64,000 nt of DNA from Deltaproteobacteria bacterium (GTDB taxonomy: Bacteria; Desulfobacterota; DSM-4660; Desulfatiglandales; HGW-15), in NCBI GenBank assembly GCA_016930835.1, contig JAFGGA010000173.1, positions 6,156 to 70,155 of the forward strand, given 5' to 3'. Made by a program: the position numbers. Position 1 is the first letter of the stretch. Each line of letters starts with the position of its first letter. Shown piece by piece: positions 6,001-9,000 of this stretch.

Positions 6001-9000
6001 GAAATACCTACCCTTTACATCCGTTGGTTTTTCCGATCCCCGGGTAAAGGTTCATATCCAAGATGGAGCTGAATTTGCCCGCAAAAATGTTGATGCCTAT
6101 GATGTGATTATCGTTGATTCTTCAGACCCCATCGGACCCGCTAAGGTCCTTTTTGAAGAACCCTTCTATCGTTCAATTGAAGCAGCCCTCAAAAAAGACG
6201 GCATCATGATGAACCAGGCCGAATCGATTTGGCTCCATCTCGACCTGATCAAAGATCTTCGAAAGACCGCGGAGGGGCTTTTCCCCAAAACTGAATATTG
6301 TTATACGTGTGTACCCACCTATCCCAGTGGCCAGATTGGATTCTTGTGTTGCTCCAAAGAATATGACGTTCGCGAACCACAACGGAGACCCGACCAGGCA
6401 TTTCAAAAAAAATGTCGATATTATACGCCGGACATTCATAAGGCGTCCTTTCACCTTCCGGCCTTTGTCAACCGGTAATTCATGTCCGCCCTGGAATATC
6501 CCTATCCCTGGCTAAACAATCCTTCCAAAATTCTTTTGCACCCCTGGAAACCGCCACATACTGATCCCAAAGAATAATCATTCGCTGCATTATCCGACCA
6601 ATGAGCCGATATCGAATGATCTGGCATACCGTTTGAATAATCAGAATAATAAAGGGGTTGAAAATATTTCTTTTAATGATAATAGTTATAGGGTAATTTC
6701 ATATCTGATGTATTCGATGATGTATTCGATCCGATCAATATCTTGTTTGAATGACCAGGGTCACAGGATCGATAATCAATAAAGGATCAATATCGGGAGG
6801 ACTATTCAATGAATCGTATCACAAAATTATCCGTTCTGGTTTTTATTACATGCCTGCTTTTTTCATTATATACGGCTCCGGTTTTTTCCGAACCAAACGT
6901 GAAGCAACCAGCTCCTAAAATATCGCCCATTGAAACCCATTATGATTTCGGACAAATTTCCGAGGGAATCAATGTAGAGCATATCTTTAAGATCCGCAAC
7001 ACAGGCGACAGCGATCTGGTTATTCATCAAGCCAGGGGATCGTGAGGCTGCACAGCCACGGTCGTTTCCACCAAGGCCATTCCCCCGGGCGGGGAAGGAG
7101 AGATCAAAGCCACCTTGAGCACCCGTGATATCAAAGGCCCGTTGCAAAAGAGCATTACAGTGTCTTCCAATGATCCGGTCAGCCCGCGCATCGTCCTAAC
7201 ACTCAAGGGTGAAGTCATCCGCGAAGTCGATGTGATCCCGCGTGCCATAAACTTTGGAAGACTAGGGAAAGGGCAAACCGTTTCCAAAGATCTGACCATT
7301 ACACTGCATAAGCCCGATAAGATAAGGATTTCAGCGGTCACCGTCAATAACCATTTGTTTTCAGTCGAATCAAAAAAAGATGGAGTAGAAGGTACGTCCC
7401 GGTACGCGGTTAAATTCTTAGGAAACGATGCGCTCGGTAGAATATCCGCCACCCTTCACATTGAGTTGGAAGGGATTGAGCCACCCATCATAAGGGTCCC
7501 TCTCACGGTTAGCATCGAAAAGGATCTTCATTATACCAAGAGCCTTTATTTCATTCAGAGTAACGGTTCTTATCCATCAAGAGAAGTTTATTTTACGACC
7601 CTATCCGGTGAACCGGTTAATATCCTTAAAGTGGAGGATACGGGCGGATTGCTCAAAACAAGTGTATTAAATCGTAAAGGCTCCGCTTCCGTGCTTAAGG
7701 CAGAGGTGGCGGATTCCAAGACAACCACCACTGAGCAGACATATCATAGGTTGATTATCACGACGGATCATAAAGAAGAATCCAAAGTAGAGATTCCTTA
7801 TTCATTGGTCATCCCTCAACGGCGATAAACTTGAATCTTTTGTTTTATGGAATCATTTTGTATAGATGGTCTTCAAATAGCCCTCAAAAAGCAAGGAGCT
7901 GATGAATATACAAAGGTCAGTTACCCCTTGCGTTATGGCCTGTTTTCAGAGATTGTCTCCCCGGATTTTATCTTTCAATTGAACTTAAACGGGGAGATCA
8001 AATTCATTACCGGTAGAGGAAAAGCCTGGCCGGACCCCTCCGAGTATCTGAAGCGAACCATCGACAATAATTGGATCTACTATTCAACAGGTGGATACAG
8101 CGGTGTTTATGATTCTTTTGGTGAATATTATCTACCGTGCCCATCCTATCCCAGTAATAGCATCCAACTTGACGATCCCTTCCAAACCCATCCCGTTCAA
8201 TCCGCCATAAATGCGTGGCATGAAACATATAGCCGACTCTCCTTCCTGGCGCGAGGAAAAGGCCTGCCAAAGACCCTGGTGGACTTTCTTGGAGATGCGG
8301 TTAAAAAATCTCCCGAGTTTCTTGAGGAGCGATCATTTGCCTTGATGGATATTTTAGGGGACAGGGTGACCGTCCTGCCCCCGGATACGCGGCACGTGGA
8401 TTATGATGTCATTCCCGTCTTTATCGCTGACGGGTGCTTGTACAAGTGTGATTTTTGTATGATAAAATCTCAAAAGAAATTCGCATGCCGATCAAAGGAT
8501 GAGATCTTACATCAGATCAACGAACTTAGACATTTTTACAACAAAGATATCTGCAATTACAACGCCATATTCCTGGCTCAACACGATGCCCTGAATGCCG
8601 GAGGTGATTTGATCGAGTATGCCGCCCGATATGCCTATGATACATTTGGCTTGAGGCGATCGGCGCTTAAGGGAGCATATCTTTTCCTTTTTGGAAGTGC
8701 CCATTCCCTCTTGACAGCCGATGATACGCTTTTTGATCAGCTGGAAGCACTGCCTTACCTGACCTATATTAATATCGGCCTTGAATCAGCTGATGCCGAA
8801 ACCCTTCATCTGCTGAAAAAGGCCATTACCCCACAAACCGTCCATGATGCATTCAAGAAAATGCTTGATATCAATAAACGCTATCGCAAGATTGAAGTGA
8901 CCTCAAACTTTGTTTTTGGAAATCATCTCCCAAAAGGGCATTTGCCCTCCGTTTTTCGATTAATGGAAAAACAGCTGAAACATTTTTATGCAAAGGGTGC

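What the first reader, a model, noticed from the sequence alone, without database searches (positions are those of the whole stretch)
6809..7828. In-frame TGA at the conserved Cys position of a DUF1573 protein: candidate new selenoprotein
The two annotated ORFs (6809-7045 and 7115-7828) share one frame and are separated by a single stop, TGA 7043-7045. The DUF1573 family core reads ...NtG...L.I..v..SCGCT......i.PG..g.i.v.... Here the sequence is NTGDSDLVIHQARGS-TGA-GCTATVVSTKAIPPGGEGEIKATL, so the TGA aligns with the first Cys of the CGC motif. Sec replacing a conserved, probably redox-active, Cys is the classical signature of bacterial selenoproteins, and Desulfobacterota-type anaerobes are selenoprotein-rich.

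A modest stem-loop lies in the right place for a bacterial SECIS. It begins 10 nt after the TGA (7055-7077: GCC/GGC and GGU/ACC helices around a 2x2 internal loop, apical loop CGUUUCC), but it is weak.
Basis: partly seen in the sequence, partly recalled or inferred. Interest (0 to 1): 0.7.

Follow-up and report, generated by a model that had tools for sequence, protein, structure and literature searches.

The report
Known-family DUF1573 selenoprotein gene
The in-frame TGA at 7043-7045 is very probably a genuine selenocysteine codon in an exported DUF1573 protein, but this "U-G-C" selenoprotein family was already described in 2007, so the gene is a new member of a known family and not a new selenoprotein.

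Summary
Window 6809-7828 is one reading frame broken only by TGA 7043-7045, and the Pfam DUF1573 match (E 2e-27) runs across it.

The TGA is not an error or a pseudogene lesion.
- The 64-68% identical orthologues I could read, and about 120 more distant homologues from Myxococcota, Zixibacteria, Ignavibacteria, Acidobacteria and Desulfobacterota, carry TGA at exactly this codon.
- About 40 other homologues, mostly Bacteroidota, carry TGT or TGC there.
- TGA ends 17 of 50 other genes in the window, so the code is standard.

Two RNA hairpins follow the TGA only in the TGA forms.

"DUF1573 domain-containing protein, UGC motif" (OS_HP2; Zhang & Gladyshev 2007; NCBIfam NF041425) is an established predicted selenoprotein family.

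The product is an exported protein of three Ig-like domains, and its function is unknown. Distant paralogues sit in arsenic-resistance operons. No Sec machinery lies in the 64 kb, which is uninformative.

The parts
6795..6800 (+). Shine-Dalgarno-like GGGAGG, 8 nt upstream of the ATG
   Evidence: Read directly from the sequence.
6809..7828 (+). Complete coding sequence of the DUF1573 selenoprotein: 339 codons plus the TAA stop, with Sec at codon 79
   Evidence: Single frame with one internal TGA. Orthologues at 64-68% identity are collinear across the TGA, with no other stops or frameshifts.
6809..6889 (+). Predicted N-terminal signal peptide (MNRITKLSVLVFITCLLFSLYTAPVFS|EP). Export is inferred.
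   Evidence: Inferred from the sequence: a basic n-region, a hydrophobic core and a small-residue cleavage motif. Homologues have signal peptides or lipoboxes, e.g. LLSAC, LLLAC, LLAGC. No signal-peptide predictor was available.
6932..7216 (+). DUF1573 / HYDIN-type Ig-like domain carrying the S-U-G-C turn
   Evidence: Pfam PF07610 matches residues 42-136, E 2e-27, and PF22544 E 3.7e-18. NCBIfam NF041425 matches residues 42-136 at 88.3 bits. In the AF2 model of orthologue P0002, the Sec position lies in a turn between two strands.
7043..7045 (+). UGA selenocysteine codon
   Evidence: There is TGA at this codon in 121 of 163 motif-containing homologous loci and TGT/TGC in 41. TGA is a normal stop for 17 of 50 window genes.
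7055..7077 (+). Hairpin 1: proximal, sequence-variable stem-loop in the canonical SECIS position.
   Evidence: Window MFE is -5.7 kcal/mol. For the TGA forms the family mean is -11.35 with z -2.6, against -4.75 with z -0.4 in Cys forms. Six of 9 pairs show changes on both sides, and the covariation score is 0.20 against 0.035-0.071 for slid controls, with 0 of 500 shuffles reaching it.
7080..7096 (+). Hairpin 2: nearly invariant distal stem-loop UUCCCC-CGGGC-GGGGAA, candidate SelB-binding element
   Evidence: The 6-bp stem is fully paired in 88 of 88 TGA forms. Synonymous sites are fixed in TGA forms (ATT/CCC/CCG/GGG/GAA in 91-97 of 103) but vary freely in 39 Cys forms with the same peptide. 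It meets every bSECIS criterion except spacing in 92 of 94. The 17-mer is unique in the window and occurs once per locus in 109 loci.
7217..7825 (+). Two further Ig-like beta-sandwich domains (C-terminal two thirds)
   Evidence: The AF2 model of orthologue P0002 has mean pLDDT 92.2 and is all-beta in three domains. Foldseek finds only tandem Ig/ASH-type arrays. There is no Pfam match to this part.

Best explanation
Window 6809-7828 is a single gene for an exported protein of three Ig-like domains. Its first domain (DUF1573) carries a Ser-Sec-Gly-Cys turn, and UGA 7043-7045 is decoded as selenocysteine.

Shown here:
- The codon is a conserved Sec/Cys pair across many phyla.
- The domain spans it.
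- The TGA forms, and only they, keep two RNA hairpins immediately downstream.

Inferred:
- SelB carrying Sec-tRNA(Sec) is recruited by this bipartite element. The invariant distal hairpin (loop CGGGN, 40 nt after UGA) probably acts as the SelB-binding loop. The sequence-variable proximal hairpin probably acts as a structured spacer sitting at the ribosome's mRNA entrance. The reverse assignment is possible.
- After Sec-pathway export, the U-x-C pair acts as a redox-active selenenylsulfide or as a soft-metal(loid) binding site.

The gene belongs to the already described DUF1573/OS_HP2 'UGC' selenoprotein family.
For: 1. One frame, one TGA, and the DUF1573 match crosses it.
2. NF041425 'OS_HP2 family (seleno)protein' is the best NCBIfam hit. 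The family is listed with a UGC motif in PMC9312934 and PMC13188914 and stems from PMC1976440.
3. The two close orthologues with readable DNA (L001 and L002, 64-68% identity) carry the same TGA with conserved sequence on both sides. The other two (contigs of P0003 and P0004) have no DNA held, but their gene calls are split into the same two fragments.
4. 121 loci have TGA and 41 have TGT/TGC at the same codon.
5. TGA is an ordinary stop in the window.
6. Hairpin 2 is fixed at synonymous sites only in TGA forms.
7. Hairpin 1 is stable and covarying only in TGA forms.
8. The 11-codon-spacing subclass, which includes the sequences that pass the OS_HP2 cutoff, keeps the same two-hairpin layout with a different sequence.
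9. The window is Desulfobacterota-like, a group reported as rich in selenoproteins (PMC1976440).
Against: - No selA, selB or selD domain and no tRNA-Sec were found in the 64 kb. ARAGORN found no tRNA at all, and no Sec-machinery domain appeared among the 36 window ORFs scanned against Pfam; about 14 of my 50 putative genes were not scanned. This is uninformative for a genome of several megabases.
- Hairpin 1 in this gene fails the published bSECIS stem-length and energy criteria.
- Hairpin 2 lies 40 nt from UGA, 3 nt beyond the published 16-37 nt range (criteria from PMC13188914).
- The NF041425 score is 88.3, below the curated cutoff of 100.
- One homologue (L004) has Pro at this position, so the residue is not absolutely required.
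- I found no experimental proof of Sec insertion for any member of this family.
- All loci were retrieved with the peptide pattern IPPGGEG[EQ][IV], so the Sec:Cys ratio is not representative of DUF1573 as a whole.
Confidence: 0.88

Rival explanations
1. The UGA is not decoded as Sec in this organism. Either Sec machinery has been lost and translation stops, giving a 78-residue fragment (a recently dead gene), or the UGA is read through with Cys, Trp or another residue.
For: No Sec machinery is seen in the window. Hairpin 1 is among the weakest in the family: a synonymous UCG-to-UCC change breaks a pair that the closest orthologue L001 keeps. Homologues L004 (Pro) and L038 (Cys) show that lineages do leave the Sec state while still carrying hairpin 2.
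Against: Hairpin 2 is intact. The 260 codons after the TGA have no stops or frameshifts and stay 64-68% identical to orthologues. The orthologues in two other assemblies whose DNA I could read keep TGA.
Confidence: 0.07
2. Sequencing or assembly error, or a pseudogene: the true codon is TGT/TGC, or the gene is broken.
For: A single-base change (TGA versus TGT/TGC) would be enough. Only assemblies were inspected, not raw reads.
Against: The same TGA occurs in more than 100 distinct homologous sequences from different samples and phyla, together with Sec-specific RNA conservation. A Logan assembly reproduces it.
Confidence: 0.02
3. Two separate genes (6809-7045 and 7115-7828), as gene callers annotate them.
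For: Gene callers split it, and the protein database holds the 222-aa C-terminal fragment as its own entry (P0001). Split calls are also made in the orthologues.
Against: One Pfam domain spans the junction. The stretch between the TGA and the called downstream starts is the most conserved part of the protein (IPPGGEGEIK). The called starts differ between orthologues (TTG, GTG, ATG at different codons). Cys homologues are uninterrupted.
Confidence: 0.02
4. Genetic-code reassignment, with TGA read as Trp or Gly as in codes 4 and 25. JGI's gene call P0002 implies this by reading the codon as W.
For: P0002 was called with W at this position and runs through its own TGA stop.
Against: 17 of 50 window genes end in TGA. 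Homologues have Cys, not Trp or Gly, at the column.
Confidence: 0.01

Closest known systems
DUF1573 domain-containing selenoprotein family (OS_HP2; Zhang & Gladyshev 2007, PMC1976440; NCBIfam NF041425; listed with motif UGC in PMC9312934 and PMC13188914)
   Same: It has the same Pfam domain (PF07610) and the same U-G-C motif at the same column. Sec/Cys pairing is present, as is a two-hairpin RNA after the UGA. The source is deltaproteobacterial/Desulfobacterota. NF041425 is the best NCBIfam hit.
   Different: It scores 88.3 bits, below the curated cutoff of 100. There are 12 codons, not 11, between Sec and the IPPGGEG motif, and the hairpin sequences differ from those of the Desulfobacterales sequences that score 124-147 bits. 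It is best viewed as a sister subfamily in the same superfamily. Its 42%-identical relative L087 does pass the cutoff, at 105 bits.
Consensus bacterial SECIS (bSECISearch model, as summarised in PMC13188914)
   Same: A stem-loop lies inside the coding region just 3' of UGA. Hairpin 2 has a 6-bp stem, a 5-nt loop with G at position 2 followed by G, and an MFE of -8.9 kcal/mol.
   Different: The candidate loop is 40 nt from UGA, against the model's 16-37. A second, sequence-variable hairpin occupies the canonical position but usually lacks the loop G (14 of 94 sequences). The element is therefore bipartite. No Rfam family matches.
CXC-motif redox sites such as the C-G-C tail of Erv2 or the C-P-C of Mia40 (from my own knowledge; not tested here)
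   Same: Two chalcogen residues are separated by one residue on an exposed turn. Such pairs can form a strained, reactive disulfide or selenenylsulfide, or chelate soft metals.
   Different: The fold is unrelated (an Ig-like beta-sandwich). There is no biochemical evidence for this family, so the resemblance is only a lead.

Membership tests
Bacterial selenoprotein gene (Sec-UGA recoding) | In-frame UGA inside a conserved ORF or domain | tested here: met
   there is one TGA, and the DUF1573 match spans it.
Bacterial selenoprotein gene (Sec-UGA recoding) | Sec/Cys pair: homologues carry Cys at the aligned column | tested here: met
   41 loci have TGT/TGC at the column and 121 have TGA.
Bacterial selenoprotein gene (Sec-UGA recoding) | TGA-containing orthologues in other organisms, with conserved flanks on both sides | tested here: met
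   Myxococcota, Zixibacteria, Ignavibacteria, Acidobacteria and Desulfobacterota.
Bacterial selenoprotein gene (Sec-UGA recoding) | Downstream bSECIS meeting the consensus: loop 3-9 nt, stem at least 4 bp, G in the first two loop positions, 16-37 nt from UGA, MFE at most -7.5 kcal/mol | tested here: inconclusive
   window hairpin 1 fails on stem length (3 bp) and MFE (-5.7). Hairpin 2 meets every criterion except spacing (40 nt). Comparative evidence for both hairpins is strong.
Bacterial selenoprotein gene (Sec-UGA recoding) | selA, selB, selC and selD present in the genome | not testable with these tools
   Only 64 kb is available. None were found in it, which says nothing about the rest of the genome.
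Bacterial selenoprotein gene (Sec-UGA recoding) | Sec physically incorporated (75Se labelling or mass spectrometry) | not testable with these tools
   Needs experiment.
Pfam DUF1573 (PF07610) | Score above the gathering threshold of 26.1 bits | tested here: met
   95.5 bits, matching profile positions 5-98 of 98.
NCBIfam NF041425, OS_HP2 family (seleno)protein | Score at or above the curated cutoff of 100 bits | tested here: not met
   88.3 bits. Among relatives, L159 scores 146.9, L130 123.9 and L087 105.1 (all pass), while L112 scores 95.6 and L110 87.2 (both fail). The gene is therefore filed under the broader DUF1573 'UGC' selenoprotein family, not as a strict NF041425 member.
NCBIfam NF041425, OS_HP2 family (seleno)protein | U-G-C (or C-G-C) motif at the conserved turn | tested here: met

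The most novel reading that the evidence does not exclude
This widespread family uses a distinct, bipartite class of bacterial SECIS. It has an invariant distal hairpin (UUCCCC-CGGGN-GGGGAA, 40 nt from UGA, outside the bSECISearch range) that is positioned by a sequence-free but structure-conserved proximal hairpin. The protein itself is a periplasmic selenol-based binder or reductant of arsenic or other soft metal(loid)s, as suggested by the ars-operon embedding of the Ignavibacteria/Zixibacteria paralogues.
Probability: 0.3. Interest if true: 0.55.

Novelty: new member of a known kind. Interest (0 to 1): 0.3.

Why it matters
For annotation, the two ORF fragments should be merged into one selenoprotein gene. 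Gene callers split or mistranslate it in every database entry I looked at: P0001 and P0003-P0007 are truncated, and P0002 was read with Trp.

Biologically the gene adds little on its own, because the family has been known since 2007. Two by-products may be useful:
- A very clean natural experiment comparing Sec and Cys forms with the same peptide. It shows an RNA constraint on a hairpin that lies just outside the standard SECIS search window. This may explain why SECIS-based predictors could under-call this family.
- A recurrent arsenic-operon context, which gives a testable functional hypothesis for a domain of unknown function.

Tried and rejected
- Folding 7040-7110 or 7043-7095 alone gave no signal (z +0.34 and +0.59). 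Single-sequence folding cannot decide the SECIS question.
- Rfam found nothing at gathering thresholds and only noise at E up to 10.
- The first genome-contig scan, with the single protein, found nothing. An alignment query was needed.
- Sequence search of the PDB gave only a marginal hit to 2qsv, an uncharacterised protein (E 0.079). Foldseek against the PDB returned only generic tandem Ig/ASH arrays, so the fold gives no functional lead.
I modelled orthologue P0002 instead, which has W at the Sec position, so local geometry at the motif is not reliable.
- Neighbourhood clustering found no neighbour conserved across all clades. The radical SAM and speD/speE synteny is shared only by close orthologues and was not taken as functional evidence.
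- A scan for other single-TGA ORF junctions in the window gave no credible second selenoprotein.
- RNAalifold on the ungapped alignment recovers only hairpin 2, because hairpin 1 occurs in several registers. The covariation test used the 43 sequences preselected for one register, which biases it towards the structure. The Sec-versus-Cys energy contrast is the unbiased support.
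Full report
**Observation**

Window 6809-7828 is one reading frame of 339 codons, interrupted only by TGA at 7043-7045. A GGGAGG Shine-Dalgarno sequence lies 8 nt upstream of the ATG. The N-terminus (MNRITKLSVLVFITCLLFSLYTAPVFS|EP) looks like a Sec-pathway signal peptide; that is my inference from the sequence, since no predictor was available.

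With Cys placed at the stop, Pfam DUF1573 (PF07610) matches residues 42-136 at 95.5 bits (E 2e-27), straight across the TGA. The related HYDIN/VesB Ig-like model matches the same stretch.

**Is the TGA real and conserved?**

A protein search with the read-through product returned a set of truncated ORFs that begin just after the TGA column: P0001, P0003-P0007 and P0009-P0014. It also returned one JGI call (P0002) with W at that position.

- DNA was available for two of the close orthologues, L001 and L002 (64-68% identity over the regions compared). Both show the same TGA, with conserved protein sequence on both sides and no other lesions.
- For the contigs of P0003 and P0004 no DNA was held, but their gene calls are split in the same way, into a 65- or 78-aa fragment followed by a 222- or 223-aa fragment.
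- A 39%-identical homologue in a proteobacterial MAG (L003) has the same TGA.

Two collection scans with an alignment query returned 160 more loci. Counted over all 165 sequences held at that point (164 loci and the window), 121 have TGA at the aligned codon. They come from Myxococcota (including cultured Enhygromyxa salina), Zixibacteria, Ignavibacteria, Acidobacteria, Desulfobacterales and Syntrophobacteraceae. Another 41 have TGT or TGC, mostly Saprospiraceae and other Bacteroidota. One (L004) has CCA, which encodes Pro. This is a textbook Sec/Cys pair.

The other explanations fail:
- TGA terminates 17 of 50 putative genes in the window, so the genetic code is standard.
- A Logan assembly of SRR13394437 is identical over the region.
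- Pseudogene, sequencing error, two separate genes and code reassignment are therefore all effectively excluded.

One caveat applies to the counts. All loci were retrieved with the peptide pattern IPPGGEG[EQ][IV], so the Sec:Cys ratio is not representative of DUF1573 as a whole.

**RNA downstream of the TGA**

Folding the window's sequence alone gives nothing above chance. The comparison with relatives is decisive.

*Hairpin 2 (window 7080-7096, UUCCCC-CGGGC-GGGGAA).*
- In 103 distinct TGA forms, the codons for I-P-P-G-G-E are almost fixed at ATT CCC CCG GGN GGG GAA (91-97 of 103 each). The fourth codon's third base, which sits in the loop, varies freely.
- In 39 Cys forms that encode the same peptide, all synonymous codons are used (ATC 21, ATT 15, ATA 3; CCT 18, CCG 12, CCA 5, CCC 4; and so on).
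- The six-pair stem is intact in 88 of 88 distinct sequences.
- The 17-mer is unique in the window and occurs exactly once per locus in 109 loci.
- This is an RNA-level constraint that exists only when the upstream codon is UGA.

- In TGA forms the segment from +10 to +37 folds with mean MFE -11.35 kcal/mol and mean z -2.6. In Cys forms the figures are -4.75 and z -0.4.
- The stems differ in sequence and register between lineages, for example CCGUCG/CGACGG, GCCGUCUU/AAGACGGC, UCUUGGC/GCCAAGA and CCCUGGC/GCCAGGG.
- In the largest register class, 6 of 9 pairs show changes on both sides. The covariation score is 0.20 against 0.035-0.071 for slid controls, and 0 of 500 shuffles reach it. That subset was chosen by its predicted register, which favours the structure.
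- The window's copy is one of the weakest in the family, at -5.7 kcal/mol. A synonymous UCG-to-UCC change breaks a pair that its closest orthologue keeps.

*The 11-codon-spacing subclass.* This Desulfobacterales/Syntrophobacteraceae group keeps the same two-hairpin layout built from different sequences.

**Comparison with the published bacterial SECIS model**

The model requires a loop of 3-9 nt, a stem of at least 4 bp, G in the first two loop positions, 16-37 nt between UGA and the loop, and an MFE of at most -7.5 kcal/mol (PMC13188914).

- Hairpin 2 meets everything except spacing (40 nt) in 92 of 94 sequences.
- Hairpin 1 is in the canonical position but has the loop G in only 14 of 94, and meets all criteria in only 7 of 94.

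My reading, which is inference, is a bipartite element. Hairpin 2 is the sequence-specific SelB site, and hairpin 1 is a structured spacer at the mRNA entrance. The opposite assignment cannot be excluded. The same review notes that some bSECIS elements fall outside the model. No Rfam family matches.

**What is known**

Two reviews list 'DUF1573 domain-containing protein, PF07610, motif UGC' among the prokaryotic selenoprotein families (PMC9312934; PMC13188914). Both credit Zhang & Gladyshev 2007 (PMC1976440), where the family appears as OS_HP2 from the delta-1 and delta-4 symbionts of Olavius algarvensis. I equate the two names from the position of the DUF1573 entry in the review table and from the region matched by NCBIfam NF041425, 'OS_HP2 family (seleno)protein'.

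That model is the top hit for this protein, but at 88.3 bits, below the curated 100-bit cutoff. Among relatives, L159 (146.9), L130 (123.9) and L087 (105.1) pass, while Zixibacteria and Ignavibacteria forms (95.6 and 87.2) and a Cys form (74.1) do not.

The window's gene is thus a member of the known DUF1573 'UGC' selenoprotein superfamily, in a subfamily just outside the curated model. It is not a new selenoprotein family.

**The protein and its likely role**

An AlphaFold2 model of orthologue P0002 has mean pLDDT 92.2 and consists of three beta-sandwich domains. The Sec position lies in a turn between two strands of domain 1. Fold search finds only tandem Ig/ASH arrays, and sequence search of the PDB finds only a marginal uncharacterised hit. 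Many homologues have lipoprotein signal sequences. In the paper library only four papers mention DUF1573; the two I read list the family without assigning a function.

No neighbour is conserved across all clades. In the window the gene lies between speD/speE and a radical SAM gene plus recD2. That order is shared only with close orthologues.

In about 25 loci of a 27-32% identical clade (Ignavibacteria, Zixibacteria and unbinned metagenome contigs), the TGA-containing gene lies co-directionally with arsenic-resistance-type genes. About 16 of these include ACR3. The fullest versions read thioredoxin-like, DGC, DsbD_2/CcdA, FtsX/ABC transporter, [DUF1573-Sec], ArsR, ArsC (LMW-PTP type), an ArsM-like methyltransferase and ACR3, with ArsP in some.

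This suggests, for that clade at least, an exported selenol/thiol site that binds or reduces a metalloid and is kept reduced through a CcdA-type pathway. Extending this to the window's gene is speculative.

**Context and limits**

- The best named PyrG hits place the window in uncultured Desulfobacterota (Deltaproteobacteria and Desulfatiglandales MAGs, 85% identity).
- No tRNA was found in the 64 kb, and no SelA, SelB or SelD domain among the 36 window ORFs scanned against Pfam; about 14 of my 50 putative genes were not scanned. This neither supports nor refutes Sec usage.
- Sec insertion has not, to my knowledge, been shown experimentally for this family.

**Verdict**

'Selenoprotein' is strongly supported (0.88). 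'New' is not. Interest is modest (0.3). The residual value lies in the unusually clean evidence for a two-hairpin SECIS whose conserved loop sits just beyond the standard search window, and in the arsenic-operon lead for a domain of unknown function.

Noticed in passing
L031-L036, L040, L042, L045, L064, L067, L110, L117, L118, L123, L124, L126, L145 (around the DUF1573 match): In a 27-32% identical clade (Ignavibacteria, Zixibacteria and unbinned metagenome contigs), the TGA-containing DUF1573 gene lies co-directionally with arsenic-resistance-type genes: ArsR, ArsC (LMW-PTP type), ACR3, an ArsM-like methyltransferase and ArsP. Thioredoxin_3, DGC, DsbD_2/CcdA and a MacB-type ABC transporter are also present. 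No such genes flank the window's gene.
   Followed up: partly
L004:869-871 and L038 (codon 12 upstream of IPPGGEG): Two homologues have left the Sec state (CCA = Pro in L004, TGC = Cys in L038) but still carry the exact hairpin-2 sequence ATTCCCCCGGGCGGGGA. These look like recent conversions with a fossil SECIS, or in L004 possibly an assembly error.
   Followed up: partly
L002:167-1150 (protein P0002): The JGI gene call translated the Sec TGA as Trp and ran through the gene's own TGA stop (...PQQRWMNILEIL). The contig was evidently called with a TGA=Trp code. All the other database entries for the family that I inspected are truncated at the TGA.
   Followed up: yes
window 38130-52911, minus strand: A type VI secretion system cluster: TssG, TssF, a gp25-like TssE, Hcp, VipB/TssC, VipA/TssB, VasJ/TssA and VasE/TssK. 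The large ORFs at 27048-38029 and 47372-50848 were not annotated.
   Followed up: no
window 57450-62891, plus strand: A xanthine-dehydrogenase-family molybdenum hydroxylase cluster: XdhC accessory protein, an FAD-binding subunit and a MoCo-binding large subunit. Some members of this enzyme class use a labile selenium cofactor (my own knowledge). I did not test whether this one does.
   Followed up: no
window 7847-9124, plus strand: A 425-aa radical SAM protein starts 18 nt after the selenoprotein stop. It matches Pfam Radical_SAM only weakly (E 3e-9) and has no NCBIfam assignment. It follows the DUF1573 gene in the close orthologues' contigs too. This may be mere synteny among close relatives.
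   Followed up: partly
window 6707-6730: A perfect tandem duplication of the 12-mer GATGTATTCGAT lies in the 330-nt intergenic region upstream of the gene (read). Its significance is unknown.
   Followed up: no
window 6866-7147 and 7027-7452, minus strand: Antisense ORFs of 93 and 141 aa overlap the gene. Similar antisense ORFs recur in 44 related loci. They are most simply a by-product of the conserved, G+C-rich sense coding sequence and not genes.
   Followed up: partly
window 2436-4395 and L001:243-2219: A 4HBT thioesterase, an AhpC/TSA-type peroxiredoxin and an Amidohydro_2 gene precede the locus in both the window and orthologous contig L001. The peroxiredoxin is uninterrupted in the window, with no in-frame TGA.
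   Followed up: no
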